Origin: Candidatus Bathyarchaeia archaeon
Lineage (GTDB): Archaea > Thermoproteota > Bathyarchaeia > RBG-16-48-13 > GCA-020355125
DNA: 34,822 bases
Direction: 5' to 3'
Assembly: GCA_036446055.1 (NCBI GenBank)
Contig: JAZFSF010000155.1
Coordinates: 1 to 34,822 of the forward strand
Shown here: positions 3,223-32,884 of the stretch, piece by piece
Layout: every line of letters starts with the position of its first letter
How positions within the stretch are numbered: the stretch's first letter is position 1
Notes under the pieces: generated by a model
Database searches by the model: none
What the model saw: the letters and a program-made list of their open reading frames with translations, nothing else
Told to the model about the DNA's origin: nothing
Made by a program: the position numbers and the translations under genes

Positions 3223-3237
3223 CAGGAGGAGTTTAAC

Positions 3238-17795: not shown

Positions 17796-18123
17796 GGTGA
17801 TGGATCTAAGTGGGAGCTAGGGGTTCCCTTAGAAGCAACGCTTCGACCGCAAACCCCCTATACGGCGGACGACGCTGAAGTGAGGCCTTTAGGCTCCATC
17901 AACGCCTTTACTTAGTCGCCATGAATCTTCGTCCTCTGGGGCTCACGGTTGTGGGGCAATCTTCGGAGGGAGGTTGTTTCCGCATTCGTTGGGTGAATCT
18001 GGCCAGGCTCGGAAGAGAGCAACCTAAACTCAGACGATGGGCGTTCAGAGGAGTGCGGAGAAGAGTGAAGAGGTCTTGGACTTGGTGGTAACACCGGATG
18101 TCGATCTTCAGTGATCCGTCACC
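17796..18123 (+). ncRNA. Signal recognition particle RNA (archaeal 7S RNA)
   Basis: Conserved helix-8 motif GGCCAGGCTCGGAAGAGAGCAACC at 18001-18024 (compare CAGGYCCGGAAGGRAGCA). The ends pair over 11 bp (GGTGATGGATC 17796-17806 with GATCCGTCACC 18113-18123). About 330 nt, G+C-rich, with a TATA box upstream and a T5 tract downstream. Confidence 0.8.
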
Positions 18124-18221: not shown

Positions 18222-19013
18222 GTGAAAATCGCAGTTTCGGGGAAGGGAGGTGTCGGAAAAACGACGATCGCTGGCACTCTAGCACGTATATTCGCTCGAA
18301 AAGGCTTTAAAGTCTTAGCTATCGACGCTGACCCTAACGCCAACCTAGATTTAACCTTGGGTTTGCCTCTAAACCAAGCCAAAAAAATAATTCCCGTTTC
18401 TGAAAACACGGCTCTCATCGCGGAGAAGACCGGCGTCAAACCCGAGTCCTACGGCGGAGTCTTTCGATTATCTTTCCGCGTCGACGACATCATCGACCGG
18501 TTTGGCGTACAAACTCCGGATGGCGTGACCCTTCTCGTCATGGGCGTCGTTCGATCAGCAGGACAGGGTTGCATGTGCCCCGCCAACGCTTTAGTCAGAG
18601 CCCTCATACGACACCTCATCGTTAGGCGCGAAGAGGTCGTCATCCTTGACATGGAAGCCGGAACAGAACACTTGGGGAGAGGTACAGCCGAACACGTGAA
18701 TGTGATGCTTATTATCTCTGATGCTAACAGAAAATCCTTGGAAACCGCGAAAAACATACACGCTCTATCCAAGGAAATGGGCGTTGAACAGGCGTTCATA
18801 GTCGGAAATAAAGTTCTAAACCCGTTTGAAGAGGACGTCATCAAAGAGTATTGCACCGACAACGGCTTTTCCCTCCTCACCCTCATACCATATGATCAAG
18901 AAATACGAAAAAACGATGTGAAGGGAGAGGCATTGACCTTCTCCACGGCGTCTCCTGGGTTAAACGCTATTACAACTTTAAGCGAACGACTGCTATCTGC
19001 CACGCTTGAATGA
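18222..19013 (+). CDS. CooC-type (MinD/ParA superfamily) P-loop NTPase, putative metallocentre maturation factor
   Basis: 263 aa. Deviant Walker A GKGGVGKTT, DADPNANL, and a CxC motif (GQGCMCPA) as in Ni-binding CooC/AcsF proteins. GTG start after GAGGG. Confidence 0.78.
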   Translation: MKIAVSGKGGVGKTTIAGTLARIFARKGFKVLAIDADPNANLDLTLGLPLNQAKKIIPVSENTALIAEKTGVKPESYGGVFRLSFRVDDIIDRFGVQTPDGVTLLVMGVVRSAGQGCMCPANALVRALIRHLIVRREEVVILDMEAGTEHLGRGTAEHVNVMLIISDANRKSLETAKNIHALSKEMGVEQAFIVGNKVLNPFEEDVIKEYCTDNGFSLLTLIPYDQEIRKNDVKGEALTFSTASPGLNAITTLSERLLSATLE

Positions 19014-19327
19014 AAAGCAGTCGTGGCTGAGTGCGACCATATCGCCTTGCTCAGCCTCAGGGTCATCTTCATACGGTCACTACTGGGAATCCTTCCATTA
19101 TTCTCAGTGGCTTAAGGACTGACAGCCCAGCACAAAACCTTGAGATGGTCTTTCACGACTTGAAGCCTTTGAAACAGCAACCAACTCGCATCTAAGAGTT
19201 TCGATAGAGACGGGTAACGCTAGTTGATGTCTCCTCTAAACATTAATATATTCTTTAAGGCGTAAGATTTGACAGGATTTAACTGGTTGCCCAAAGAAAA
19301 TCTGTTTGATAAGGACGTGGTTTATGT

Positions 19328-19627
19328 TTGAACATCGGTGAACTTAAAGTCGGCATGAAAAACATTGATATTCGAGGTAAAATTGTTGAAAAAGCTGAAA
19401 CGCGGGAAGTGTATTCGAGGTACGGGTTCAACGTTCATCGCGTCTCCCAGGTGCAAATCTCCGATGACTCGGGTTCGATTAAGATGATTTTATGGAACGA
19501 CCAAATTGACAGCGTCTCGGCAGGCGATACGATTCAAATAGAAAATGGATATGTCAGCCAGTTCAGAGGGGTGAGCCAGTTGAATGTCCGAAAACGTGAT
19601 GGAAAAATATCTGTTGTAAAAGAATAG
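19328..19627 (+). CDS. Small single-OB-fold nucleic-acid-binding protein (SSB/RPA-like)
   Basis: 99 aa. Pattern IGELKVGMKNIDIRGKIV...DDSGSIKMILWNDQ...GDTIQIENGYVSQFRGVSQLNV matches the archaeal short SSB-like OB fold. A TTG start is required to include the conserved N-terminus. Confidence 0.65.
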   Translation: MNIGELKVGMKNIDIRGKIVEKAETREVYSRYGFNVHRVSQVQISDDSGSIKMILWNDQIDSVSAGDTIQIENGYVSQFRGVSQLNVRKRDGKISVVKE

Positions 19628-20038
19628 ATAGACTATACCCTCTGTAAATAACCATTAAATATTGGGATAAACTACCTCGCAACATCAAGCTTTTAACCCT
19701 TGTAGTGACCCCGTTTCTGACAGAGAGGCACCTCTTCATGGCGATGAATAGAGGCATCCGCAGTCACGGTTCAATCTTCTGTTAACGCTTGTTTCCTGAA
19801 GTTAAATCGTTGATTACGATCAATCATTCGGAGTGAGAGGTCGTCGATTGAGATGAGCTTGAGAGGCGTGACCATTCAGCAGATTTATGGATGATTGTTT
19901 CGATTCATTCTCAGTTTTCTAAAATGGTTTATGTAGTGACATCATATCCATTTCCTCTCGTCGCCTCTTGACATTAGCTAGCGCATAGTTTTTAAATATG
20001 GGATAAAAGGTATTTCTGTTATCTGGTGACGGATTAGA

Positions 20039-21985
20039 GTGTTAATTCGCGAAATAATCCTTGAGAACTTTATGTCCTATGAATACGCGAGAATTCCGTT
20101 AAAACCAGGACTGAACATTATTTGTGGTCCAAATGGTTCAGGGAAATCCTCTCTTCTTCTCGCAATATCCGTTGCTTTAGGACAAGCCTACACTGAAAGA
20201 TCACGAAAGCTTAGTGACCTCATTCGATGGGGTGAAGATAACGCTCGGGTGACACTTGTTTTCGATAACACACCTGAACGAGGGAAGAGGCCTGTTCCGC
20301 GGTTTGACGTGGATTACTTTCGGATTTCTCGATACCTGAAGAAAGATGGGGCTTACTGGTTTGAAGTGAACTTTAAAACGGTTAACAAGAAGGAAGTCAC
20401 CTCAATTTTAAATGAATTTGGCATAAACCCGGACAACATGCTCATTATCATGCACCAACGTATGATGGAGGAGTTTAGCATAACTACACTCATTCAGAGG
20501 CTAACCATGGTTGAGGAGGCTGTTGGCTTAGGTGCGTACCGACAGAACGTTTTAGAAGCCCAAGACAAGTTGACTCAAGTTCTAAGTCAGGAAGAGTCTA
20601 TTAAAACCCTCATCGAAAACGCGGAGCAAACCCTTGACTACTGGAAAGAAGAATACGAAAAATACCAAAAACGAAATAATATTCTTCAGAGAAAAGTCTT
20701 TCTGGAGCGGGAGCTTGTTTGGGCAGAGCTAGTCAAGCAAGAGGCCCTAGTCACCTCGTGGCAGGAGAAAGCTGAACAAAAAGAAGCAAGCCTAGCCGAC
20801 ATCGAAAAGGAGGTTACCCGCACCCAAGTCTTAATCAAGCAAATTGGCAGCGACTTGAACACTCTTCGGTTTGAACAGCGACAATCCTTTTATTCCTTGA
20901 TGGCGCTGGAAAAAGAGAAGACAGAACATCAAGTCACGACTAAATTAAGCAATGTAACTCTCAATAAAATTAGGGATATCAGGAACCTCAAGGAACAGCC
21001 AGACACAAATACGGGTAAAGAAACGCTGGACACGTTAGATGCTTATGTCGTTGAATTACACGCGCAAATAGCCCTGTCTCAGACAGTCCTGAAAGGTCTT
21101 GACTTCAAGACATCAACGCTTCACTCTCAATTGGCTGCGTTCGACGAAGAACGGTCTCGTACTGAACAACAATATGTGGACGAGCGGGTTCGGGAAGCTA
21201 TGTTACGGTTTCAAAGCGAGGCCGCGAATAAGGAGTTGAGTTACCTGAAAGGCGAGTTGAGACGCGCTCTGAGAGAGGTGGAGGCCTTTCAACCTCGATT
21301 AATAACAGCAGGTCCCCCGATGAAAACGGTGAGAAGTCCTCAAGAGATCTATGACGACATACGCGTCGCCAGTATCCAACTCTCAACTATTGGTGAGCTC
21401 TCAGAAGACATTGAACAAATGTATTTGATGTATCTGAACGTGTTCAACGATTTGAAGCAAAAAGTAGAGGTGGTCTCCGAAAACAGGACGAGTGTGTTGA
21501 ACGAGGTAGTGGAGCGAAAGAGACTATGGATTGGCATCATTAAGTCACTCCTTGATGAAGTAAGTGTTCCCTATCAAGAGTTCCTCTCCCAGCTCAACGC
21601 CACTGGAAACATCCGGTTAGTGAATACTCAAGACATAGAAACAATGGGCTTGGAGTTGACGGTGGGCTTTAAAGGAGCGGAACCCACCATTCTGGACGCT
21701 TACACTCAGAGTGGCGGTGAGAGAAGCACCGCAACCATGACGTTTCTTTTGGCGCTTCAGCAATACGTGAAATCGCCCTTCAGAGCGGTGGACGAGTTCG
21801 ATATTCATATGGATCCTAAGAACCGAGAAACAATTTCTAATTTGCTCTACAAGGAAGTACGGGGAAGTCGGGAAACCCAGTATCTCACTATAACGCCAGG
21901 GCAAATTACAAACATTGATGAGGCGGTGCACGTCATTACCATTCAAAACCTTGAGGGCCGATCTGAGGTAAGCGTGGTGGAGTGA
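20039..21985 (+). CDS. Hinge-less SMC-family ATPase with SMC5/6-like head motifs (mini-SMC)
   Basis: 648 aa. ENFMSY, Walker A GPNGSGKSS (aa 30-38), IIMHQ Q-loop region, signature QSGGERS (aa 557-563), Walker B/D-loop PFRAVDEFDIHMD. About 330 aa of heptad-rich sequence lies between the head halves, with no Cys and no globular hinge. GTG start. Confidence 0.8.
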   Translation: MLIREIILENFMSYEYARIPLKPGLNIICGPNGSGKSSLLLAISVALGQAYTERSRKLSDLIRWGEDNARVTLVFDNTPERGKRPVPRFDVDYFRISRYLKKDGAYWFEVNFKTVNKKEVTSILNEFGINPDNMLIIMHQRMMEEFSITTLIQRLTMVEEAVGLGAYRQNVLEAQDKLTQVLSQEESIKTLIENAEQTLDYWKEEYEKYQKRNNILQRKVFLERELVWAELVKQEALVTSWQEKAEQKEASLADIEKEVTRTQVLIKQIGSDLNTLRFEQRQSFYSLMALEKEKTEHQVTTKLSNVTLNKIRDIRNLKEQPDTNTGKETLDTLDAYVVELHAQIALSQTVLKGLDFKTSTLHSQLAAFDEERSRTEQQYVDERVREAMLRFQSEAANKELSYLKGELRRALREVEAFQPRLITAGPPMKTVRSPQEIYDDIRVASIQLSTIGELSEDIEQMYLMYLNVFNDLKQKVEVVSENRTSVLNEVVERKRLWIGIIKSLLDEVSVPYQEFLSQLNATGNIRLVNTQDIETMGLELTVGFKGAEPTILDAYTQSGGERSTATMTFLLALQQYVKSPFRAVDEFDIHMDPKNRETISNLLYKEVRGSRETQYLTITPGQITNIDEAVHVITIQNLEGRSEVSVVE

Positions 21986-22789
21986 TTGTTTATGAAGAGC
22001 AGTAAAGATAGGAATCGTTTGTTGAGAATTATTAGTTTGTGTGTAGCCATAGAACGGAAAGGTGGAAACCCCTTCGAAGTAGGGGTTAAAGAGGCCCTTG
22101 AAACCTTGCGAAAGTATCTTCCCCATTGGAAGGTCCTTGAGGACTTCGCTTTAGACGCCGAAACATTGAACAAAATCTCGTCCATCGTCAGCCTTCAAGG
22201 GAATTGGATTAAACATCGATCCTCCACCCTCTTCGTCGATCCTCTCCTCATCGAGTTGAAAGTTAAAATGTTGGAACCCGAAAAACTCTTACAGATTTTT
22301 CGAAGGATATGGCGCCCCGTGATCGAAATGGACCGTCTTTCCAATAAACGGGTCTTGGAGGCAATAGATTATTGGAATCGACTCCAACCCATCGAGGATA
22401 GGCTGATGAAGCTTCCTGAGCCCTCCGGTGTTCTCGATCTCACAAGTATCGAAGAACTCATTAAAGCCCGAATTATCAACGAAGAGTCCTTCACCGCCCT
22501 CCTCCAAAAGTTCTGGTTAGAGCTTAAAGAGCAGGCTAATGGAGAAAAGCGAATTCATTACTGGGACTTTATTTATGCGCCTTCATATGAGGAAACCGTT
22601 ATACGGGCTTATTTAACAAGTTTTTTAGTCACCTACGGCTTTGCCACTATGGAAATAGAACCCTTAGAAGAAGAAACCTTTCTAGTACCTTACATGGAGC
22701 TAAGAGAGCTTTCCCTCAAGGAGCAGATGATTTCGTTTCCCATCTCTATCGACTACGACATCTGGAAAGAAATGGCGGAGAGGCAATAA
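21986..22789 (+). CDS. ScpA-like kleisin candidate
   Basis: 267 aa, starting directly after the SMC stop (TTG 21986 or ATG 21992). GGNPFEVGVKEALETLRKYL resembles the archaeal ScpA N-terminal DPWDIDI..YL segment. C-terminal TVIRAYLTSFLVTYGFATMEIEPLEEETFLVPY resembles the ScpA winged helix. Confidence 0.55.
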   Translation: MFMKSSKDRNRLLRIISLCVAIERKGGNPFEVGVKEALETLRKYLPHWKVLEDFALDAETLNKISSIVSLQGNWIKHRSSTLFVDPLLIELKVKMLEPEKLLQIFRRIWRPVIEMDRLSNKRVLEAIDYWNRLQPIEDRLMKLPEPSGVLDLTSIEELIKARIINEESFTALLQKFWLELKEQANGEKRIHYWDFIYAPSYEETVIRAYLTSFLVTYGFATMEIEPLEEETFLVPYMELRELSLKEQMISFPISIDYDIWKEMAERQ

Positions 22790-22790
22790 G

Positions 22791-23381
22791 TTGGCTGAAA
22801 ACACAGGAGCCTACGTTAGAAAAGTGAAGAGAGCGGCAAAAATCATTTTCTATAGACGACATCGACAACCGGGTGTGAAGGGCTGGGAGCTTCGGAGAGC
22901 TCTGGGAAAGGAGTATGTTAAAATCGTCGACCTCTTAAATCAACACCTTTCGAGTATAGGCTTACAAGTGAGAACCGTTTATGAGGGTTCGGAGCAGCCT
23001 CAAAATCCAACGAGTGAGCAACTTGATGGAGCCAGATTCTACATGGCCGTGAAAGAGCCTCTGACGGCATCCGACTTGGTTCTGTCTGGATGGCGTGTAG
23101 ACGACGTTGCGGCCCTCGTGGTTGCCGTTTCATACATCATTTCTAAACAAGGGAAGGCCGCTCGAAAAGATATTGAGCAGATTCTCCGAGAAAAATTTCC
23201 CAAGTGGCGAGTTGAGCGCAACCTCAACCGCTACATCCGACAGGGCTACCTCAACGAAGTGGAGGACGTTCTCTACCTCGACTGGAGAGCTAGAGCCGAA
23301 ATCGACCAAAAGACGCTGATCAAACTGGTTATCGGCGGCGACACAAGTAAGTCAAGCGATCAAACAACAACGACTCCCTAA
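22791..23381 (+). CDS. ScpB-like / KITE-like tandem winged-helix protein candidate
   Basis: 196 aa with a TTG start 1 nt after the kleisin stop. Two wH-like units. The second, AALVVAVSYIISKQGKAARKDIEQILR...YIRQGYLNEV, parallels the ScpB LEtLAIIAY.QPITR.EIE.IRG pattern. Ser/Thr-rich tail. Confidence 0.5.
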   Translation: MAENTGAYVRKVKRAAKIIFYRRHRQPGVKGWELRRALGKEYVKIVDLLNQHLSSIGLQVRTVYEGSEQPQNPTSEQLDGARFYMAVKEPLTASDLVLSGWRVDDVAALVVAVSYIISKQGKAARKDIEQILREKFPKWRVERNLNRYIRQGYLNEVEDVLYLDWRARAEIDQKTLIKLVIGGDTSKSSDQTTTTP

Positions 23382-23614: not shown

Positions 23615-24253
23615 ATGGCAGATATATTTAAGACATGGGAAAGCAGTAGTCAGCCATCAACGTTTTCGAAGCTCACGAACGCCATGAGGAAGCCTCAACC
23701 CCTCAGGGAAAAAATTTCCTTCACAATCTACAAGTTAAAGGTTCAGCAGGGGCGTCTTGAACAAGCTTACCAAAGGATGCAAAAGCACTACAACGGTCTA
23801 TTTAGACGATGCACAAACTCTGTTCTCGCCAAAGACTCCGCACGCGCTTCCATATATGCAAATGAGTGCGCCGAAATCAGGAAAATGTGTCAAACAATGC
23901 TCAGAGGACAATTTGCTATTGAACAAGTCGTCCTACGACTGGAGACCATTGAAGAATTTGGCGACATCGCGGTGGAAATGAATCCTGTGGCAAACGTGAT
24001 AAATTCGATTAAAGGAAATCTGGCTGGTGTCGTCCCCGAAGTATCGTATAGACTTGGTGAGATTGGAAATTCAATGAACGACCTTGTAATGGATTCTGGC
24101 AGAGCTACCGCCACAAGTTGGAACGTGATTACTTCTGGAGAAGACGCTGAAAAGATCCTTGGAGACGCAAACGCTATCGCCGAAGAAAAGATGAAAGAGA
24201 AGTTCCCCACACTACCTACCACCACGTTACCAAGCCTAGAAAAATCGAATTAG
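23615..24253 (+). CDS. ESCRT-III (Snf7/CdvB-family) paralogue without winged-helix domain
   Basis: 212 aa. Core ARASIYANECAEIRKM...LRLETIEEFGD parallels the downstream cdvB (RAILYANECAEIRKL...IRLQTISELSD). C-terminal proline motif EKFPTLPTTTLP (MIM2-like). AGGAG Shine-Dalgarno. Confidence 0.8.
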   Translation: MADIFKTWESSSQPSTFSKLTNAMRKPQPLREKISFTIYKLKVQQGRLEQAYQRMQKHYNGLFRRCTNSVLAKDSARASIYANECAEIRKMCQTMLRGQFAIEQVVLRLETIEEFGDIAVEMNPVANVINSIKGNLAGVVPEVSYRLGEIGNSMNDLVMDSGRATATSWNVITSGEDAEKILGDANAIAEEKMKEKFPTLPTTTLPSLEKSN

Positions 24254-24309
24254 TTTCCCAAGAATTGAGTAGAAAAAGAATCAAATTCACGGGTCAACCG
24301 TGGAATCCC

Positions 24310-24319
24310 TTTCTTTTTT
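24310..24319 (+). terminator. T-rich tract (TTTCTTTTTT) between the ESCRT-III paralogue and cdvA
   Basis: Lies 57 nt after the TAG stop. GGAGG precedes the cdvA ATG, which suggests a separate transcription unit or attenuation point. Confidence 0.3.
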
Positions 24320-24345
24320 AGATATTTCTATACCGGAGGATTTAC

Positions 24346-25026
24346 ATGTCAATTAAAACGGATGTAGCAAAGACAATTATAGGAGAGGTAATTCGTGACT
24401 CATACGGTCGAGTCTATGGACGAATTCTCGGGTTCTCCGTGGGCTCATCGAGAAGAGCTCCTCTCATCTGGATTGAACAAAAAACTGGCGAAGTTTCCAG
24501 TTGCCCTAGCTCGCAAATCTCTCTCGACGATGAAATGATGATAGTTAACACGTCATGGACGGTGAAGGCCACTCGTCTAAGCAACGACTTACGTGTAATC
24601 CTCCAGAAGTTATCCGTGCTAAACAAGCTCTATAACACTGGTGAAATAGTGAAAGAGGCATACGACAAAATACGTAGCCATTATGAAACGATGATTCGTT
24701 CCTTGACCCAACGCCGTCAACTTCTTTCTCAAAATGCTGAAAAGCGGTTGGAAGAATTGATTGCAACGGTTGTTCAACTCAAATTTTTATTGGCAAAGTC
24801 AAAGTTAGAGCGTTCCCTCGGATACGTTGATGAAGACACCTGCAACCTTATCGCGGACGCTCTTCGTGACAGCCTTAACCGGGCATTAACGGAGAAAAAT
24901 GAAGCTGAAACCACCATAGACGCGTTGGCAGAGGTTTCAATGCCCCCAGAAACCTCTGCCCCCCCCAAGGTGAAGCGAGAGGGCGCTTCGCCAATTGTTT
25001 TACATATTAAAGAAGCAAAACTATAG
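24346..25026 (+). CDS. cdvA: CdvA cell-division protein
   Basis: 226 aa. N-terminal beta-rich PRC-barrel-like segment (IIGEVIRDSYGRVYGRILGF), long helical middle, and a Pro-rich linker followed by a short C-terminal beta peptide (SPIVLHIKEAKL) in the position of the ESCRT-III-binding E3B motif. Sits directly upstream of the wH-bearing cdvB. Confidence 0.75.
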   Translation: MSIKTDVAKTIIGEVIRDSYGRVYGRILGFSVGSSRRAPLIWIEQKTGEVSSCPSSQISLDDEMMIVNTSWTVKATRLSNDLRVILQKLSVLNKLYNTGEIVKEAYDKIRSHYETMIRSLTQRRQLLSQNAEKRLEELIATVVQLKFLLAKSKLERSLGYVDEDTCNLIADALRDSLNRALTEKNEAETTIDALAEVSMPPETSAPPKVKREGASPIVLHIKEAKL

Positions 25027-25128
25027 TTTTCGGGGGTTAACAAAATATTCAATGTTCTTGACAATTGGAACGAGAAGAATGACCCCCTCCTCAATAAGCT
25101 GAGGCGGTGGTTCGCTCCAAAGAAAAAG

Positions 25129-25896
25129 ATGTCTTTGAAAGAGAACATAAGCACGGCGACCTATAACCTCAAAGCCACGTTGAGCAAAATACGTCGGAAC
25201 TCAACGGGATTGAAACAGAGAGACTCAAACTTCTTCAAAAAATGTATAGACGCCCAGTTAAACAACAATTATAATCGGGCGATCTTGTACGCCAACGAAT
25301 GCGCTGAAATAAGAAAATTGGCGAAACTACTTCTCAGCAGCGAACTAGCTCTGGAAAAGGCAATCATTCGTCTGCAGACGATAAGCGAATTAAGCGATAT
25401 TGTGGGAACCATTGTTCCCATCCTAGGAATTGTTCAAGAAACGAAGGGCCGTCTTAAGGGCGTAATTCCTTCCGTGTCGGGAAGACTGGAAGAAGTCTCC
25501 GGAATGCTGAATAGCAGTATAATGGAGATGGGATCAGTACACGCATCTGCCTATGGACTCACAAGCTTAACTCCCGAGGTGAAGACGATCCTTGAAGAGG
25601 CAAATACGGTGGCTGAAGAGGAAATAAGAGAAAAGTTTCCTGAGTTACCTCAGGAACTACATACCATCGAAGTCGACGACGCTGAAGCCAGAATCCCTAT
25701 AGCTCTGACTGCTACAGGTGCAGAAATACCACTACAAAATCGAGCTTTATTGAAAAAGCAAGTCTACAGCTACATAAAAGATCAGGAAGGAAAGTTGAGC
25801 GTAGTACAATGCGCATCCTACCTCGGTGTCTTTCCAACGGACGTTGAAAAAGCGATTCTGCGGCTTAAGAACGAAGGAAAAATAATCCTAGAATAA
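25129..25896 (+). CDS. cdvB: CdvB (ESCRT-III) with C-terminal winged-helix domain
   Basis: 255 aa. Snf7-like core, MIM2-like REKFPELPQEL, and a C-terminal wH-like segment QVYSYIKDQEGKLSVVQCASYLGVFPTDVEKAILRLKNEGKI. The N-terminus may extend upstream (see findings). Confidence 0.85.
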   Translation: MSLKENISTATYNLKATLSKIRRNSTGLKQRDSNFFKKCIDAQLNNNYNRAILYANECAEIRKLAKLLLSSELALEKAIIRLQTISELSDIVGTIVPILGIVQETKGRLKGVIPSVSGRLEEVSGMLNSSIMEMGSVHASAYGLTSLTPEVKTILEEANTVAEEEIREKFPELPQELHTIEVDDAEARIPIALTATGAEIPLQNRALLKKQVYSYIKDQEGKLSVVQCASYLGVFPTDVEKAILRLKNEGKIILE

Positions 25897-25930
25897 TGTG
25901 TAAGCATACCCTTCAAAAGAGGCGAAGATA

Positions 25931-27061
25931 ATGTCCCTTGCACTAAATGAACTTGAAAAACTAGCAACGAAATCCGCTACGGAAGCAATAACCTTCGACC
26001 GACAAGGCTTAAAGGGAATGGCCATTTCAAAATATCAGAGAGCCATTGAAATCCTCACAAAATTATGCTCTCTGTATCCCAAGGCCAACCAAAACAAGGT
26101 CTATTTTGAGTACATCGGGCAATATCAAAAGCGGATTAAAGAGCTCAAGGGATTCGCGTATGAAGCGGAGTCCTGGAAAAACGAGCAAAAATACAATGGC
26201 AAGATTTTGCGAGAAAAACCCAATGTAAATTGGAAAGACGTTATCGGCCTTACAGACGCCAAACAGGCCATACGCGACTCAATCATTTATCCTTTTAAAC
26301 GACCCGACTTCTTTCCCTTAGGTTGGCCACGTGGCATCCTTCTTTTCGGGCCACCAGGATGCGGGAAAACCTTGCTGGCTGCAGCAACTGCAACAGAGAT
26401 CGACGCAGCCTTTTACTGTATTGACGCCGCTACCATCATGTCCAAGTGGCTAGGCGAGTCTGAACGAAACGTGTCTCAGCTTTTTGAAACTGCGAGGTTG
26501 GTGTCTGAGAACGGTCAGCCCGCCATCATTTTCATCGATGAGTTAGATTCCCTCATAGGCATTCGCTCCGAGGAAGTAGGTGGCGAAGTCCGGATGAGGA
26601 ATCAGTTCATGAAAGAGATGGACGGCATCTCCGACAAGAACAAAAAACTGCATGTCTACCTCATCGGAGCAACTAATAAGCCGTGGAGCCTCGACGGACC
26701 CTTCCTCAGACGGTTTCAAAAACGAATCTTTATTCCCATTCCAAATCTGGAATCCCGCAGAGACATCCTTAAACTGTATAGTAAAAAACTTATCAACATG
26801 GGAACCGACGTAGACTTTCTTGAATTGGCCAAGCGTACACATGGATATTCAGCCAGCGACTTATATGACTTGATTCAAGGCGTCCACTTAAAGGCCGTCC
26901 GAGAATTCTTTGAATCACACAAGACCACTGACTTCAAGACTACTCTACGATCCATACAAAGGAGTGATTTCCTTACTGTTCTCAATGAGAGAAAACCAAG
27001 TATTTCCATGAACACAATAAGCCTTTACGAAAAGTGGTACGAACGATTTAAGGCACTGTAA
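25931..27061 (+). CDS. cdvC: CdvC / Vps4 AAA+ ATPase with N-terminal MIT domain
   Basis: 376 aa. Helical MIT-like N-terminus, Walker A GPPGCGKT, Walker B IIFIDELDS, second region of homology GATNKPWSLD. Confidence 0.9.
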   Translation: MSLALNELEKLATKSATEAITFDRQGLKGMAISKYQRAIEILTKLCSLYPKANQNKVYFEYIGQYQKRIKELKGFAYEAESWKNEQKYNGKILREKPNVNWKDVIGLTDAKQAIRDSIIYPFKRPDFFPLGWPRGILLFGPPGCGKTLLAAATATEIDAAFYCIDAATIMSKWLGESERNVSQLFETARLVSENGQPAIIFIDELDSLIGIRSEEVGGEVRMRNQFMKEMDGISDKNKKLHVYLIGATNKPWSLDGPFLRRFQKRIFIPIPNLESRRDILKLYSKKLINMGTDVDFLELAKRTHGYSASDLYDLIQGVHLKAVREFFESHKTTDFKTTLRSIQRSDFLTVLNERKPSISMNTISLYEKWYERFKAL

Positions 27062-27117: not shown

Positions 27118-27603
27118 TCAACACAAACTTGAAGATTTCAACATGCGCGAAAAGAGGGCAGAGTCAAAGATTTGTCCTCCTTCTTGACCAGATTCGAGTA
27201 CTGCGTTATTACATAGGGCAACAATACGCAACGCAAGCTTAGGGTGCACCGTTTCCTGATGTGTTATTTCCACGGAGTCCCTCAAGAAGAGATTCGTTGA
27301 CTCGTATCCGATTCCCGTGACTTTGACATACATGTTGTTGGCAATTTTGAGTTCAGTCATCTCGTTTTTTGTCAGGGAGCCCATCTTGTAATAGTAGGTG
27401 ACTGTTGTATAACCCAAGGTTTTGAAGGAAGCTAGTTTTCTGACAATAACTCTAGTCCTAGCCATAGCGTGCGTTTTAATTATGTTTTCCTTCACTAAAA
27501 AAGAAGTGCATTTAGAGCAACATTTTCTGAAGTATAAGGTTTTGCCTTTTCTCATACATTGTTTAACTAATGTAATTGAACATTTTTTAATTTTTCTTCT
27601 CAT
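27118..27603 (-). pseudogene. Relic fragment of a P-type ATPase (TM4 end, P-domain and N-domain) with destroyed phosphorylation motif
   Basis: The 161-aa ORF aligns by eye with aa ~310-425 of the adjacent intact ATPase. RVIVRKLASFKTLGYTTVTYYYKMGSLTKNEMT matches AIIRRLASAETLGSTTVICADKTGTLSRGEMT, VTGIGYES matches VSGIGYEP, and LRIVALCNNA matches LRIGALCNDS. The catalytic Asp of DKTGT is Tyr, and the rest of the roughly 900-aa protein is absent. Confidence 0.6.
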
Positions 27604-30883: not shown

Positions 30884-32884
30884 ATGGTTTTTGAGACTTG
30901 GTTAATTGCACCGATTGCTTCTCTAATTTCAATAGCTTCTGGCTTAATTCTTTTCCGTTACGTTAACAATAAGGACAGTGGTACGGGTAAAATGAAGGAG
31001 ATTGCAGAGGCAATACAGGAAGGTTCCCGATCCTTCTTGAAGACCGAATACCGTTATTTAGGTGTATTCGTGGCTGTCATGACCCTCGTCCTCTCGTTGT
31101 TCCTCAGCCTGAAAATCGGTGCGGCCTATGTTTTCGGCGCCATCCTCTCCTCACTCGCAGGAGTAATTGGCATGGAAATCGCGGTTCGAGCGAATGTTAG
31201 GACGGCACACGCAGCTGACAAAAGTGGTCTCATCAGTGCATTTCTCATTGCATTCCGAGGAGGCGCCGTGATGGGCTTAATGGTCGTCGGCTTGGCGCTT
31301 TTGGGTATAAGCGTAATCTATGGCCTGACTGGTGATCCTGAATTGGTTCTGGGGATGAGTATTGGCGCAAGCACCCTCACATTATTCATGAAAGCAGGCG
31401 GGGGGATCTTCACGAAAACGGCGGACATTGCTGCTGACCTCGTTGGAAAAGTCGAACTCGGTATACCTGAGGATGATCCACGAAACCCCGCGGTGATTGC
31501 TGATAACGTTGGGGACAACGTTGGTGACTGCGCGGGTTCAGGAGCTGATTTGTTTGACTCGTACGTTGCATCCGTAATGGCTGCCATGATTTTGGGTGGC
31601 GCTTCACCACAGAGTTACCTTGAGGTTCTTCCTCTAGTCTTCTCTGGTTTGGGCATCATTTCATCGATAATAGGTATCCTCGTTGTGAGGCTGAAGCGGG
31701 GCGGGAACCTCGGATGGACCCTGAACCTCAGCACCTACATCACGTGCGCTGTCTTCGGCCTGTTTACCTTAGGCGCAACCCTCTTGTTCGGATATGACCT
31801 CCGGATCTGGGGAGCAACGATAGCTGGTTTGGTGGCGGGAATAATCATCGGCTTGACCTCCGACTATTTCACATCCATTGATCGCTCTCCCGCAATCAAG
31901 ACGGCTGAATCCTCACAGGCGGGGGCTGCAATCACGATATTAACCGGGTTCTCTTACGGGTTGATGAGTGTTTTTCCAGCCCTTCTGGGTATAGGCATTG
32001 CATCTGCCGTCGCATACTCTCTTTACGGTCTCTACGGCGTTGGGATGAGCGCTGTAGGCATGCTTGCGATTGCTGGGACGATTATAGCCGGGGACGCGTA
32101 TGGCCCCATTGGAGATAATGCCAAGGGTATAGCTGAGATGTCAGGACTGGGCGAGGTGGTTGTCGAAATAACTGATAAGATCGATGCAGCGGGGAATACT
32201 ACTAAAGCGATTACCAAGGGCTTCGCCATCGGAGCCGCGGGTCTGACCGCCTTGGCGTTACTCGCGTCCTATCAGGAAATCGTTGAAACGTTAACGGGAA
32301 AAGTTATCACCTTCGACCTGATGAATCCCCTCGTGATGATGGGTATTTTAATTGGCATGGCCATCCCAGTCGTCTTCTCCGCCATGATTATCAAAGCGGT
32401 TTCGAAGAATGCTGACAGGATGATTGCGGAGGTTCGCAGGCAATTCCGTGAGATTCCGGGCATCATGGAGGGGACGAGTAAGCCTAATTACGCCGCCTGC
32501 ATTAGTATCGCAACGAAAGGCGCTCTCAGGGAGTTGATGCCCCTCATCATTTTTTCCATAGGAGCCACGCTCATTGTCGGCTTCGTCGCGGGCATACACG
32601 CCCTCGCTGGCTATCTAAGCGGTGCCATCTTCAGCGGCTTTTTACTGGCTATCCTGATGTCGAACGCAGGGGGCCTTTGGGACAACGCCAAGAAATACGT
32701 AGAGTCAGGCTTCTTCGGTGGAAAGGGATCAGACGCTCACAAAGCGGCGGTGATTGGGGATACAGTGGGTGACCCGTTCAAGGATACTGCTGGTCCGTCG
32801 TTGAACACGCTTGTCACGGTGATGTCCCAGATTTCTATTCTCTTTGCGCCCTTGATCATAACCTATGCCCTCATCACTCTTTGA
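30884..32884 (+). CDS. hppA: Membrane-bound H+-translocating pyrophosphatase, K+-independent signature
   Basis: 666 aa polytopic protein. DNVGDNVGDCAG, GNTTKAITKGFAIG, DNAKKY and GDTVGDPFKDTAGPS motifs. Confidence 0.93.
   Translation: MVFETWLIAPIASLISIASGLILFRYVNNKDSGTGKMKEIAEAIQEGSRSFLKTEYRYLGVFVAVMTLVLSLFLSLKIGAAYVFGAILSSLAGVIGMEIAVRANVRTAHAADKSGLISAFLIAFRGGAVMGLMVVGLALLGISVIYGLTGDPELVLGMSIGASTLTLFMKAGGGIFTKTADIAADLVGKVELGIPEDDPRNPAVIADNVGDNVGDCAGSGADLFDSYVASVMAAMILGGASPQSYLEVLPLVFSGLGIISSIIGILVVRLKRGGNLGWTLNLSTYITCAVFGLFTLGATLLFGYDLRIWGATIAGLVAGIIIGLTSDYFTSIDRSPAIKTAESSQAGAAITILTGFSYGLMSVFPALLGIGIASAVAYSLYGLYGVGMSAVGMLAIAGTIIAGDAYGPIGDNAKGIAEMSGLGEVVVEITDKIDAAGNTTKAITKGFAIGAAGLTALALLASYQEIVETLTGKVITFDLMNPLVMMGILIGMAIPVVFSAMIIKAVSKNADRMIAEVRRQFREIPGIMEGTSKPNYAACISIATKGALRELMPLIIFSIGATLIVGFVAGIHALAGYLSGAIFSGFLLAILMSNAGGLWDNAKKYVESGFFGGKGSDAHKAAVIGDTVGDPFKDTAGPSLNTLVTVMSQISILFAPLIITYALITL

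What the first reader, a model, noticed from the sequence alone, without database searches (positions are those of the whole stretch)
20039..23381. Translationally coupled operon: hinge-less 648-aa SMC5/6-like ATPase, ScpA-like kleisin and ScpB-like tandem-wH protein
Seen in the sequence:
- Three ORFs are packed with 0-1 nt between them: TGA followed by TTG at 21986, and TAA-g followed by TTG at 22791.
- ORF1 has a complete SMC head: NFMSY, GPNGSGKSS, IIMHQ, QSGGERS and PFRAVDEFDIHMD.
- Only about 330 aa separate the two head halves. This stretch is heptad-like, contains no Cys (so no Rad50-type zinc hook) and has no Gly-rich globular hinge.
- The likely arm apex is EQPDTNTGKE (aa 319-328, nt 20993-21022).
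- A Pro-rich break, AFQPRLITAGPPMKTVRSP (aa 416-434), interrupts the returning arm.
- ORF2 carries ScpA-like N- and C-terminal segments, and ORF3 looks like a two-winged-helix ScpB/KITE protein.

Established knowledge, from memory of family consensus:
- Canonical archaeal and bacterial Smc proteins are about 1100-1200 aa, with long arms and a hinge.
- Their head motifs read NFKSF and LSGGEK...DEvDAALD.
- NFM, SGGERS and PFR.vDEfD..MD are the SMC5/6-type variants.

Inference: this is a compact SMC-kleisin-KITE module with arms perhaps half the usual length or less, and without hinge-mediated dimerisation. Its mode of DNA entrapment or loop extrusion would therefore differ from known condensin-like complexes. 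Short archaeal SMC-like proteins have been reported (Sph proteins, ClsN, SMC5/6-related sequences). I cannot tell from here whether this trio belongs to any of them.
Basis: partly seen in the sequence, partly recalled or inferred. Interest (0 to 1): 0.85.

Follow-up and report, generated by a model that had tools for sequence, protein, structure and literature searches.

The report
Hinge-less archaeal SMC5/6-like operon
Three tightly packed genes in a Bathyarchaeia genome encode the archaeal relative of the eukaryotic SMC5/6 chromosome-maintenance complex, but its motor protein has arms half the usual length and no hinge, a feature the published phylogenies do not mention.

Summary
Three contiguous + strand ORFs (20039-23381) encode a 648-aa SMC ATPase, a 267-aa kleisin and a 196-aa tandem winged-helix KITE.

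- **Family.** ORF1 scores best against yeast Smc5 and Smc6. ORF2's only family matches are Nse4, not ScpA. ORF3's model best matches Nse1/Nse3. This is the "SMC5/6-related" archaeal complex already published from phylogeny (Yoshinaga & Inagaki 2021; van Hooff et al. 2025). ORF1-like Bathyarchaeota sequences are in those authors' alignments.
- **No hinge.** AlphaFold2 (pLDDT 85) gives a plain helical hairpin: helix 165-317, loop 318-325, then the return strand with one conserved break. There is no hinge and no Cys hook. I found no paper describing this.
- **Not an artefact.** All 80 retrieved loci, from six archaeal groups, have a 590-730-aa SMC. About 65 keep the SMC-kleisin-KITE order.
- **Evolution.** More distant relatives (982 and 835 aa) keep a hinge and the same trio. 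The ~1040-aa relatives with a mid-arm CxxC nest inside the short forms and have lost the adjacent kleisin/KITE.

How the complex dimerises at the arm tips and holds DNA was not tested. I rate it a new architectural variant of a known complex, of moderate to high interest.

The parts
19991..20000 (+). TATA-box-like element (TTTTTAAATA) 39-48 nt upstream of the ORF1 start. GGTGA at about 20025-20029 could serve as a Shine-Dalgarno sequence. Putative operon promoter.
   Evidence: Read directly from the sequence. Inference only; no archaeal promoter tool was available.
20039..21985 (+). ORF1: 648-aa hinge-less, short-arm SMC5/6-related ATPase (GenBank MEE8322827.1, annotated only as 'AAA family ATPase').
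   Evidence: Pfam SMC_N 5e-36 spanning aa 3-634. PDB phmmer best hit yeast Smc5 7.9e-31, Smc6 4e-24. Foldseek top hits Smc6/Smc5 5.9e-24. AF2 mean pLDDT 85.
20126..20149 (+). Walker A motif GPNGSGKS (aa 30-37).
   Evidence: Invariant G30, P31, N32, G33, G35, K36, S37 in 52 homologs.
20531..20989 (+). Outgoing arm: one continuous predicted helix, aa 165-317 (153 residues, about 22-23 nm at 0.148 nm per residue).
   Evidence: DSSP on the AF2 model, pLDDT mostly 85-92.
20906..20926 (+). Conserved sub-apical arm motif LEKEKTE (aa 290-296, E291 invariant), inside the most hydrophobic arm segment (278-291).
   Evidence: Invariant column E291. Conservation and hydrophobicity profiles. Also present in the long CxxC relatives. 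Function unknown.
20990..21013 (+). Arm apex: an 8-residue loop (aa 318-325) where canonical SMCs carry a hinge of about 150 aa.
   Evidence: The only non-helical stretch between the two arm strands, pLDDT <50. Least conserved and most length-variable part of the family. No Cys.
21014..21592 (+). Returning arm, aa 326-518 (helices 326-415, 434-451 and 457-518).
   Evidence: AF2 model.
21284..21406 (+). Conserved coiled-coil discontinuity (aa 416-456, GPxxxTxRSPxE). Probably the SMC 'joint'.
   Evidence: Conserved in short and long relatives. phmmer aligns ORF1 aa 383-630 to the Pyrococcus yayanosii Smc head + coiled coil + joint structure 5xei. The whole-chain Foldseek match to 5xei has TM 0.69 normalised to the target. 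Calling it the joint is an inference.
21707..21796 (+). ABC signature QSGGERS (aa 557-563) through Walker B FRAVDE (aa 581-586), in the SMC5/6-type wording.
   Evidence: Invariant S558, G559, G560, E561, D585, E586. The same wording occurs in human SMC5 in the published alignment.
21986..22789 (+). ORF2: 267-aa Nse4-like kleisin (alternative ATG start at 21992). The C-terminal winged-helix domain is about aa 190-265 (nt 22553-22780).
   Evidence: Pfam Nse4_C 3.1e-4 for the window protein; 26 of 49 family members hit it (best 2.3e-6) and none hits ScpA. In the family-profile PDB search all four hits are Nse4 family: three yeast Nse4 chains (best 0.004) and human EID3 (0.011). The N-terminal SMC-neck-binding domain is inferred, not shown.
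22791..23381 (+). ORF3: 196-aa tandem winged-helix KITE, Nse1/Nse3-like.
   Evidence: AF2 pLDDT 79, two helix-helix-helix-strand-strand modules. Foldseek PDB top four hits are chains of the Nse1-Nse3-Nse4 and MAGE-G1/NSE1 complexes (1.4e-5 to 2.7e-4; TM 0.56-0.61 for three, 0.37 for 5hvq_D). JetB, ScpB and MukE follow. One of 43 family members hits Pfam MAGE at 6e-4.

Best explanation
**Shown here**
- The three genes form one operon encoding the archaeal SMC5/6-related complex of a Bathyarchaeia archaeon: an SMC ATPase, an Nse4-type kleisin and an Nse1/3-type KITE.
- The SMC subunit is a natural 'mini-SMC'. It has a complete, catalytically intact ABC head, a neck, a conserved break (probably the joint) and about 70 more residues of coiled coil, closed by an 8-residue loop.
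- It has no hinge and no zinc hook.
- The hinge was lost inside this family. More distant relatives with the same gene trio still carry one.

**Inferred from how Smc5/6, Smc-ScpAB and MukBEF work**
- Two SMC subunits engage their heads around two ATP molecules.
- One kleisin bridges the neck of one SMC (N-terminal domain) and the cap of the other (C-terminal winged helix).
- A KITE dimer sits on the middle of the kleisin.
- DNA is clamped on top of the engaged heads, inside the kleisin/KITE compartment.

**My commitment, about 45% likely**
- The roughly 22-nm arms lie side by side as a short rod, held by the joint and the conserved sub-apical LEKEKTE element. They are not locked at the tip.
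- The complex would then be an ATP-gated DNA clamp or short-range bridge whose topological hold on DNA rests on the kleisin compartment. It would not be a hinge-closed tripartite ring taking 50-nm steps.

**Likely role**
- Chromosome maintenance or repair alongside a canonical Smc-ScpAB, which most Bathyarchaeia appear also to have.
For: **Identity**
- ORF1: SMC_N 5e-36; Smc5 7.9e-31 and Smc6 4e-24 score best in the PDB sequence search and the fold search.
- ORF2: Nse4_C in 26 of 49 family members, and Nse4-only PDB hits.
- ORF3: the model is closest to Nse1/Nse3.
- Published 'SMC5/6-related' Bathyarchaeota/TACK sequences share ENFMSY, QSGGERS and SPFRAVDEF.VHMD.
- The operon type is described by van Hooff et al.. 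Their table lists Nse4- and Nse1/3-related genes in Bathyarchaeia.

**Architecture**
- The AF2 model is a hairpin with an 8-residue apex. ORF1 has a single Cys, at position 29. Pfam finds no SMC_hinge.
- All 80 genome loci have a 590-730-aa SMC.

**Hinge loss**
- P0415 (982 aa, 49% head identity) has a central domain that aligns to the Pfam-validated hinge of the Freyarchaeum protein P0451 (3e-11).
- Both are followed by kleisin and KITE homologs.

**Intact ATPase**
- Walker A, Q-loop, signature and Walker B residues are invariant.

**Housekeeping setting**
- Neighbours include ribosomal proteins, RNA polymerase subunit D, SRP RNA, SSB and the Cdv division genes.

**Unlocked tip**
- The apex is the least conserved (0.33 versus 0.9 in the heads) and most length-variable region.
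- It shows no hydrophobic enrichment.
Against: - No multimer model or experiment was possible. The stoichiometry, the kleisin-neck and kleisin-cap contacts and the state of the tips are all inferred.
- Every characterised coiled-coil SMC-like protein dimerises at its distal end (established knowledge).
- The ancestor had a hinge, and a derived sub-lineage gained a CxxC at the tip. Both suggest that tip pairing matters in this family. An unconserved helical tip interface, as I recall for RecN, cannot be excluded.
- Kleisin identity rests on the C-terminal domain only, at weak E-values (3e-4 for the window protein). The N-terminal domain has no detectable match.
- Placement in the SMC5/6-related clade rests on shared motifs, PDB rankings and a crude NJ tree, not on a proper ML phylogeny.
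- The presence of a canonical Smc-ScpAB in this particular genome was not checked. The window is the whole 34.8-kb contig.
Confidence: 0.7

Rival explanations
1. Same complex, but the two arm tips do pair, through a minimal and poorly conserved helical interface of the kind I recall for RecN. The complex would then be a closed mini-ring of about 2 x 22 nm. It would entrap DNA, and perhaps extrude loops, like other SMC complexes but with a smaller lumen and step.
For: - All known SMC-like coiled-coil ATPases dimerise distally (established knowledge).
- Relatives have a hinge.
- A nested sub-lineage carries a CxxC exactly at mid-protein. This argues for continuous selection on tip pairing.
- B. 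subtilis Smc still works with a Rad50 zinc hook in place of its hinge, and with some shortened arms (PMC5344682).
Against: - The apex is the least conserved and most length-variable region, spanning 44-75 aa over the aligned segment.
- It shows no extra hydrophobic positions.
- The AF2 monomer model gives a simple low-confidence loop.
Confidence: 0.3
2. The short SMC does not act as a homodimer. It pairs with another SMC-type protein encoded elsewhere, either the canonical Smc or a long CxxC paralogue. This would mimic the Smc5-Smc6 heterodimer.
For: - Most Bathyarchaeia carry a second (ScpB-like) KITE, so probably a second SMC system.
- The ~1040-aa CxxC relatives, with heads 62-69% identical to ORF1, lack an adjacent kleisin/KITE.
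Against: - The trio occurs in six archaeal groups, whereas the CxxC form is one small nested clade.
- Arms of 150 and 350 residues could not co-align.
- According to the published survey, prokaryotic SMC complexes are homodimeric.
Confidence: 0.08
3. It is an anti-plasmid or anti-phage SMC-type defence system of the Lamassu or Wadjet kind, not a chromosome-maintenance complex.
For: - PADLOC models mad3 (4e-26) and LmuB (1.9e-16) match ORF1.
- Short coiled coils are, as I recall, typical of LmuB.
- A review describes a role for eukaryotic Smc5/6 in antiviral immunity (PMC10586767 abstract).
Against: - Those matches are generic ABC-head hits, far weaker than the SMC match (1.6e-53).
- ORF2 and ORF3 have no defence-family hit.
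- No nuclease or other effector gene is adjacent.
- The neighbourhood is core housekeeping.
- The trio recurs across whole archaeal classes.
Confidence: 0.04
4. ORF1 is a frameshifted, truncated or misassembled fragment of a normal-length smc gene.
For: Relatives of ~1040 aa exist whose heads are 62-69% identical to ORF1.
Against: - 107 of the 120 closest homologs are 558-726 aa, from independent assemblies.
- All 80 genome loci show an uninterrupted 590-730-aa ORF.
- The deletion relative to the long forms is in frame and symmetric on both arm strands.
- AF2 folds the arm with high confidence.
Confidence: 0.01

Closest known systems
Archaeal 'SMC5/6-related' SMC-kleisin-KITE operons (Yoshinaga & Inagaki 2021, PMC8665677; van Hooff et al. 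2025, bioRxiv 10.1101/2024.01.07.573240)
   Same: - Same family. Bathyarchaeota/TACK sequences with the same head motifs are in the published alignment.
- The operon has the same content: SMC + Nse4-related kleisin + Nse1/3-related KITE.
   Different: - Those papers analyse trimmed head alignments and gene presence.
- The texts and supplements I could search say nothing about hinge loss, arm length or a CxxC apex in this clade.
Eukaryotic Smc5/6-Nse4-Nse1/Nse3 core complex
   Same: - Best-scoring solved structures for all three proteins.
- The signature and Walker B wording QSGGERS ... PFR.VDE...MD is shared with human SMC5.
- The kleisin + KITE partner logic is the same.
   Different: - Smc5 and Smc6 are about 1070-1160-aa chains in these structures.
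- From established knowledge: they form a heterodimer with long arms and a hinge. The KITE is a heterodimer, and Nse1 carries a RING domain. Nse2, Nse5 and Nse6 are additional subunits.
- Here there is one 648-aa SMC, one 196-aa KITE with no RING, and no hinge.
Hinge-bearing members of the same family: P0415 (982 aa, locus L086) and Ca. Freyarchaeum deiterrae WXG40904.1 (835 aa, locus L082)
   Same: - Same gene order, with homologous kleisin and KITE (hhalign 3.7e-21 and 6.5e-20 for L086; 6e-5 and 1e-6 for L082).
- Heads are 49% and 35% identical to ORF1.
   Different: - They keep a central hinge: Pfam SMC_hinge 4.6e-11 in P0451, and P0415 aligns to it at 3e-11.
- The window protein has an 8-residue loop there.
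~1040-aa CxxC relatives (e.g. P0080, P0093, P0096)
   Same: - Heads and the proximal arm, including the joint and the LEKEKTE motif, are homologous.
- They are nested inside the short forms and sister to the window's subclade (NJ bootstrap 100 and 76 of 100).
   Different: - About 400 extra arm residues, and a single CxxC(x12)H exactly at mid-protein, resembling a Rad50/ClsN zinc hook.
- No kleisin or KITE follows in the two informative contigs, L081 and L084, where gamma-glutamyltranspeptidase comes next. L085 ends about 200 nt after the gene and tells nothing.
Bacterial/archaeal Smc-ScpAB
   Same: - SMC head + neck + joint fold (5xei, TM 0.69 normalised to the target).
- Homodimer + kleisin + KITE-dimer logic.
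- Engineered B. subtilis Mini-Smc and a zinc-hook chimera show that arm length and the hinge can be altered with function retained (PMC5344682).
   Different: - NCBIfam SMC equivalog score 181.8 against a cutoff of 729.4.
- No ScpA match.
- ScpB is a weak fold match (TM 0.29).
- No hinge, and arms of 153 residues against about 344 in B. subtilis Smc.
Hinge-less SMC-like ATPases: Rad50/SbcC, ClsN/Sph (ASRP), RecN, Lamassu LmuB
   Same: An ABC head split by a coiled-coil hairpin with no hinge domain.
   Different: - No zinc hook.
- Scores far below the family cutoffs: ASRP 43 against 300, RecN 22 against 408, Rad50 about 52 against 700-1087.
- As far as I recall, none of those proteins is described as partnered with an Nse4-type kleisin plus a KITE.

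Membership tests
Archaeal SMC5/6-related complex (SMC + Nse4-like kleisin + Nse1/3-like KITE) | SMC head closest to Smc5/Smc6, with SMC5/6-type signature and Walker B wording | tested here: met
   Smc5 7.9e-31 and Smc6 4e-24 score best in the PDB search. Foldseek's top hits are Smc6 and Smc5. The motifs are shared with published clade members RLI24128.1 and RJS83642.1 and with human SMC5.
Archaeal SMC5/6-related complex (SMC + Nse4-like kleisin + Nse1/3-like KITE) | Adjacent Nse4-type kleisin | tested here: met
   Nse4_C hits 26 of 49 family members, best 2.3e-6. The only PDB profile hits are Nse4 family, 0.004-0.011. The window protein itself scores below Pfam's gathering cutoff (21.4 against 26 bits).
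Archaeal SMC5/6-related complex (SMC + Nse4-like kleisin + Nse1/3-like KITE) | Adjacent Nse1/3-type KITE (tandem winged helix) | tested here: met
   The AF2 model's top four Foldseek hits are chains of the Nse1-Nse3-Nse4 and MAGE-G1/NSE1 complexes, 1.4e-5 to 2.7e-4. No sequence-level match apart from one MAGE hit among 43 members.
Archaeal SMC5/6-related complex (SMC + Nse4-like kleisin + Nse1/3-like KITE) | Three genes co-localised in one operon across lineages | tested here: met
   SMC-kleisin-KITE order in about 65 of 80 loci; several of the remaining loci are cut by contig ends.
Archaeal SMC5/6-related complex (SMC + Nse4-like kleisin + Nse1/3-like KITE) | Placement in the SMC5/6-related clade by rigorous phylogeny | tested here: inconclusive
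   Only an NJ tree on 304 head columns was built. It groups the family with hinge-bearing archaeal relatives, apart from the ~1000-1160-aa proteins, which I did not identify. No ML or mixture-model tree was possible.
Canonical SMC protein (Smc, SMC1-6, MukB, JetC) | ABC ATPase head split by an antiparallel coiled coil | tested here: met
   Pfam SMC_N spans aa 3-634. AF2 model.
Canonical SMC protein (Smc, SMC1-6, MukB, JetC) | Globular hinge dimerisation domain at the arm apex | tested here: not met
   No SMC_hinge hit. The AF2 apex is an 8-residue loop. Positive controls P0451, P0486 and P0507 do hit SMC_hinge.
Canonical SMC protein (Smc, SMC1-6, MukB, JetC) | Arms of about 300-350 residues per strand (about 45-50 nm) | tested here: not met
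   The outgoing helix is 153 residues. The Walker A to signature distance is 429-563 aa across the short members.
Smc-ScpAB | ScpA kleisin and ScpB KITE; SMC equivalog score | tested here: not met
   No ScpA hit in any of 49 members. ScpB 2z99 is only rank 8, TM 0.29. TIGR02169 scores 181.8 against a cutoff of 729.4.
Rad50 / ClsN-Sph (ASRP) zinc-hook proteins | CxxC hook at the coiled-coil apex | tested here: not met
   The only Cys is C29. ASRP scores 43 against a cutoff of 300, and Rad50 about 52 against 700-1087.
Lamassu / Wadjet SMC-type defence systems | Adjacent effector (LmuA, or the JetD/MksG nuclease) and location in a defence island | tested here: not met
   Only generic ATPase hits for ORF1, and none for ORF2 or ORF3. 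The neighbours are housekeeping and Cdv genes.
SMC-kleisin holo-complex (functional definition) | Kleisin N-terminus binds the SMC neck, its C-terminus binds the cap, and a KITE dimer sits on the kleisin | not testable with these tools

The most novel reading that the evidence does not exclude
A large, mostly TACK archaeal clade runs a genuine SMC-kleisin-KITE machine with no distal dimerisation module at all. Two 22-nm arms are left open at the tip, and DNA is held only by the ATP-engaged heads and the kleisin/KITE compartment.

This would be a natural experiment showing which SMC functions do not need a hinge-closed ring. It sits in the lineage closest to the ancestor of eukaryotic SMC5/6. 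One Bathyarchaeia sub-lineage later re-extended the arms and gained a zinc-hook-like tip.
Probability: 0.35. Interest if true: 0.8.

Novelty: new variant of a known kind. Interest (0 to 1): 0.6.

Why it matters
**Bearing on SMC mechanism**
- Current models of SMC action (ring entrapment, DNA-segment capture, hinge gating) assume two long arms joined by a hinge.
- This is a widespread natural SMC-kleisin-KITE complex with half-length arms and only a loop at the apex. It could show which activities survive without a hinge: ATPase, DNA clamping, entrapment and translocation.

**Practical value**
- By my estimate the whole complex is only about 225 kDa (2 x 648 + 267 + 2 x 196 aa). That makes it an attractive minimal system for structural work.

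**Evolutionary interest**
- The family is the closest archaeal relative of eukaryotic SMC5/6.
- The series hinge, then bare hairpin, then CxxC tip shows that the distal module is evolutionarily replaceable. Engineered B. subtilis chimeras had suggested this.

**Limit on novelty**
- The existence of the operon, and its Nse4 and Nse1/3 affinities, is already published.

Tried and rejected
- **Sequence searches for ORF3.** The ORF3 profile against the PDB gave only insignificant hits (NurA-like nuclease, 0.055). Pfam and NCBIfam on ORF3 gave nothing. Only the structure comparison was informative.
- **NCBIfam naming.** All ORF1 matches (SMC, arcadin-4, Rad50, ASRP, RecF, RecN) are far below their cutoffs, so none applies.
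- **Hinge in P0415.** A PDB sequence search of its central domain was inconclusive (Smc2 hinge, 0.17). A pairwise alignment to the Freyarchaeum hinge settled it (3e-11).
- **Tip dimerisation signal.** Conservation and hydrophobicity profiles show nothing special at the apex. This is weak negative evidence only.
- **Cdv linkage as a functional clue.** The Cdv cluster directly follows the trio only in the window and L001. It lies 3.4 kb downstream in L024 and 5-7 kb downstream in L015 and L017. It is not a family-wide association.
- **Second SMC-like ORF near the trio in L033 and L049.** It is a short Rad50, not a paralogue.
- **Literature.** Five searches found no description of hinge-less or short-arm archaeal SMC5/6-related proteins. 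One of these may have failed because the search cannot handle '/'. Subscription-only papers are not covered.
- **Defence-system reading.** Rejected (and gene context).
- **Frameshift or misassembly reading.** Rejected.

Full report
**1. What is in the sequence**

- ORF1: 20039-21985, 648 aa, GTG start.
- ORF2: 21986-22789, 267 aa.
- ORF3: 22791-23381, 196 aa.

The junctions are TGA|TTG and TAA-g-TTG. For ORF2, an ATG two codons further on (21992), preceded by GGTGGAG, is an equally good start. The first gap is therefore 0 or 6 nt.

A TATA-like TTTTTAAATA lies 39-48 nt upstream of ORF1. A 230-nt AT-rich spacer follows ORF3. A single transcription unit is plausible, but this is inferred.

The window is a whole 34,822-bp contig of a 'Candidatus Bathyarchaeia archaeon' MAG. 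ORF1 is deposited as MEE8322827.1, 'AAA family ATPase'.

**2. ORF1 is a complete SMC head on a short, hinge-less arm**

- Pfam SMC_N spans aa 3-634 (5e-36).
- Among solved structures, yeast Smc5 (7.9e-31) scores best. Pyrococcus Smc (5e-28) and Smc6 (4e-24) follow.
- Walker A K36, Q-loop Q140, signature S558-E561 and Walker B D585/E586 are invariant across 52 homologs.
- An AlphaFold2 model built on that alignment has mean pLDDT 85. It shows one continuous helix 165-317, a low-confidence loop 318-325, and a returning strand (326-415, 434-451, 457-518).
- Nothing globular lies between the two arm strands, and Pfam finds no SMC_hinge. C29 is the only Cys.
- The model's best fold matches are Smc6 and Smc5 (5.9e-24). 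Next is the P. yayanosii Smc 'head + coiled coil + joint' crystal structure 5xei, with TM 0.69 normalised to the target.
- phmmer aligns ORF1 aa 383-630 to 5xei. That is an inference.
- The outgoing helix of 153 residues corresponds to about 22-23 nm. B. subtilis Smc has about 344 residues per arm strand.

**3. ORF2 and ORF3 are an Nse4-like kleisin and an Nse1/3-like KITE**

ORF2:
- It gives a sub-threshold Pfam Nse4_C hit (3.1e-4, aa 190-265).
- Of 49 diverse family members, 26 hit Nse4_C (best 2.3e-6) and none hits ScpA.
- A family profile searched against all PDB sequences at E<=10 returns only Nse4 proteins: yeast at 0.004 and human EID3 at 0.011.

ORF3:
- It has no useful sequence match.
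- Its AF2 model (pLDDT 79, two winged-helix modules) has as its top four hits chains of the Nse1-Nse3-Nse4 and MAGE-G1/NSE1 complexes (1.4e-5 to 2.7e-4). Three of them have TM 0.56-0.61; the fourth, 5hvq_D, has 0.37.
- JetB, ScpB (TM 0.29) and MukE follow.

The specific 'ScpA/ScpB' labels are not.

**4. The block is real, conserved and chromosomal**

- The 120 closest ORF1 homologs are mostly 625-700 aa.
- A search of 1.84 billion representatives finds 122 proteins at E<=1e-30. The close ones are mostly 548-685 aa.
- A scan of one genome per GTDB species gave more than 279 loci. The best 80 were kept.
- Those 80 come from Bathyarchaeia, Hadarchaeota, Methanomethylicia, Culexarchaeia-type, Methanophagales and Nitrososphaeria.
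- My ORF and profile scan finds the order SMC (590-730 aa), kleisin, KITE in about 65 of the 80 loci. Several of the remaining loci are cut by contig ends.
- The window's neighbours are housekeeping genes. They include XPB-Bax1, GluRS, mevalonate-pathway genes, ribosomal proteins, RNA polymerase subunit D, SRP RNA, a MinD/ParA-type ATPase and an SSB-like OB protein. The Cdv cell-division cluster lies downstream.
- PADLOC gives only generic ATPase hits for ORF1 and nothing for ORF2 or ORF3.
- Misassembly and the defence-system reading are both rejected.

**5. What is already known**

- Yoshinaga & Inagaki (2021) found a set of TACK archaeal SMCs that branch with eukaryotic SMC5+6. The set includes Bathyarchaeota, Verstraetearchaeota and Thaumarchaeota.
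- Their later alignment contains Bathyarchaeota/TACK sequences with ENFMSY, QSGGERS and SPFRAVDEF.VHMD. This is clearly ORF1's family.
- van Hooff et al. (2025 preprint) describe archaeal operons of an SMC5/6-related SMC, an Nse4-related kleisin and an Nse1/3-related KITE. They propose a whole-operon duplication in the TACK+Asgard ancestor.
- Their Table S3 lists Nse4- and Nse1/3-related genes in Bathyarchaeia. Most of these genomes also have a ScpB-like KITE, so two SMC systems per genome are likely.
- The trio's identity is therefore not new.
- None of these texts or searchable supplements mentions hinge loss, arm length or a zinc hook in this clade.
- Five literature searches found nothing on the subject. 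I cannot exclude a description in a paper outside the held library.

**6. The architecture varies within the family, in an informative way**

a) *Hinge-bearing relatives.*
- P0415 is 982 aa, and its heads are 49% identical to ORF1's.
- Its non-coiled central domain of about 170 residues aligns (3e-11) to residues 337-468 of the 835-aa Ca. Freyarchaeum deiterrae protein.
- That stretch covers the Freyarchaeum protein's Pfam SMC_hinge (aa 341-452, 4.6e-11).
- Both genes are followed by kleisin and KITE homologs: 3.7e-21 and 6.5e-20 for P0415, and 6e-5 and 1e-6 for Freyarchaeum.

b) *The large short clade, including the window, has only a hairpin.*
- The Walker A to signature distance ranges from 429 to 563 aa.

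c) *Every ~1016-1060-aa relative carries one CxxC(x12)H exactly at mid-protein.*
- It resembles a Rad50/ClsN hook.
- On head columns, the CxxC forms are monophyletic in 95 of 100 NJ bootstrap replicates.
- They are nested inside the short forms in 100 of 100 replicates, and sister to the window's subclade in 76 of 100.
- In the two informative contigs they are followed by gamma-glutamyltranspeptidase, not by kleisin/KITE. The third contig ends about 200 nt after the gene.

The simplest history is hinge, then bare short hairpin, then in one Bathyarchaeia sub-lineage a re-extended arm with a hook-like tip. The tree is a crude NJ tree and needs confirmation.

**7. How it probably works**

*Shown:*
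- An intact ABC/SMC ATPase.
- A kleisin with an Nse4-type C-terminal winged helix.
- A tandem winged-helix KITE.
- Conserved operon linkage.

*Inferred from Smc5/6, Smc-ScpAB and MukBEF:*
- Two SMC subunits sandwich two ATP molecules.
- One kleisin bridges the neck of one SMC and the cap of the other.
- A KITE dimer binds the kleisin.
- DNA is clamped on top of the engaged heads.

*The open question is the distal end.*
- Against tip pairing: the apex is the least conserved (0.33 against about 0.9 in the heads) and most length-variable segment. It has no excess of hydrophobic positions.
- A more conserved and more hydrophobic element (aa 278-296, LEKEKTE with invariant E291, pairing with about aa 376-389) sits about 30 residues below the tip. 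It also exists in the long forms.
- For tip pairing: the ancestor had a hinge, and a derived lineage put a CxxC at its tip. Both hint that distal pairing is under selection.
- My commitment, at about 45%: the arms align as a short rod but are not locked at the tip. The complex would then be an ATP-gated clamp or bridge that relies on the kleisin compartment.
- The main rival, at about 30%: a closed mini-ring held by an unconserved tip interface.
- Neither could be tested, because no multimer prediction was available.

**8. Verdict**

- What appears undescribed is that this SMC5/6-related complex is naturally hinge-less and short-armed across a wide archaeal clade, with hinge-bearing and hook-bearing relatives on either side.
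- I rate it a new variant of a known kind, with interest 0.6.

Noticed in passing
window 23615-27061 (+): A complete Cdv cell-division cluster lies directly downstream of the trio. It comprises an ESCRT-III/Snf7-like gene (23615-24253), CdvA (24346-25026, Pfam 1.6e-9), a second ESCRT-III-like gene that Pfam did not recognise but whose homologs sit between CdvA and Vps4 in L001 and L024 (25129-25896), and Vps4/CdvC (25931-27061). The cluster directly follows the trio only in L001, lies 3.4 kb downstream in L024, and 5-7 kb downstream in L015 and L017. The linkage is lineage-specific.
   Followed up: partly
L081 1607-4717; L084 2105-5248; L085 8001-11132: The ~1040-aa relatives carry a mid-arm CxxC(x12)H. 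In L081 and L084 they are followed by gamma-glutamyltranspeptidase, with no adjacent kleisin or KITE. L085 ends about 200 nt after the gene. It is unknown whether these genomes also keep a short trio or an orphan kleisin-KITE pair.
   Followed up: partly
L082 6001-9632 (Ca. Freyarchaeum deiterrae CP147778.1): The Asgard member of the family is 835 aa and has a true hinge with short arms. It forms the same trio and sits about 4 kb downstream of a ubiquitin/E2/E1/RING gene set.
   Followed up: partly
L086 4014-8261: A 982-aa hinge-bearing SMC with clear kleisin and KITE homologs. It is the closest hinge-bearing relative found for the hinge-less clade (49% head identity). The source organism was not identified.
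   Followed up: partly
window 20906-20926 (ORF1 aa 290-296): A conserved LEKEKTE motif (E291 invariant) lies within the most hydrophobic stretch of the arm, about 30 residues below the tip. It is shared with the long CxxC forms. It could be a partner-binding or arm-arm contact site.
   Followed up: no
L033 6040-8151 (-); L049 4676-6793 (-): A short (~705-aa) Rad50 lies 2-3 kb upstream of the SMC trio in two Bathyarchaeia genomes (NCBIfam Rad50, 8.8e-73).
   Followed up: yes
window 18222-19627 (+): A MinD/ParA-type P-loop ATPase (18222-19013) and a small SSB-like OB-fold protein (19328-19627) lie just upstream of the trio, as they do in L001. An SSB-like OB gene also lies 5-6 kb from the long CxxC forms in L081 and L084.
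   Followed up: no
window 1891-4806 (+): An XPB helicase (with its damage-recognition domain) is paired with a DUF790 protein, which I recall is the Bax1 nuclease family. The pair sits in a stretch of raised GC (0.53 against about 0.45). The H+-pyrophosphatase gene (30884-32884) is likewise GC-richer.
   Followed up: no
window 17798-18121 (+): Archaeal SRP RNA (Rfam RF01857, 129.8 bits). No tRNA genes were found anywhere in the 34.8 kb.
   Followed up: yes
P0096 (KPL00359.1): A long CxxC family member is deposited as 'Planctomycetes bacterium SM23_65'. Because the rest of the family is archaeal, the 5.9-kb contig is probably mis-binned.
   Followed up: no
window 27118-27603 (-): A 161-aa ORF between the Cdv cluster and a P-type ATPase has no Pfam match at E<=1e-5.
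   Followed up: no
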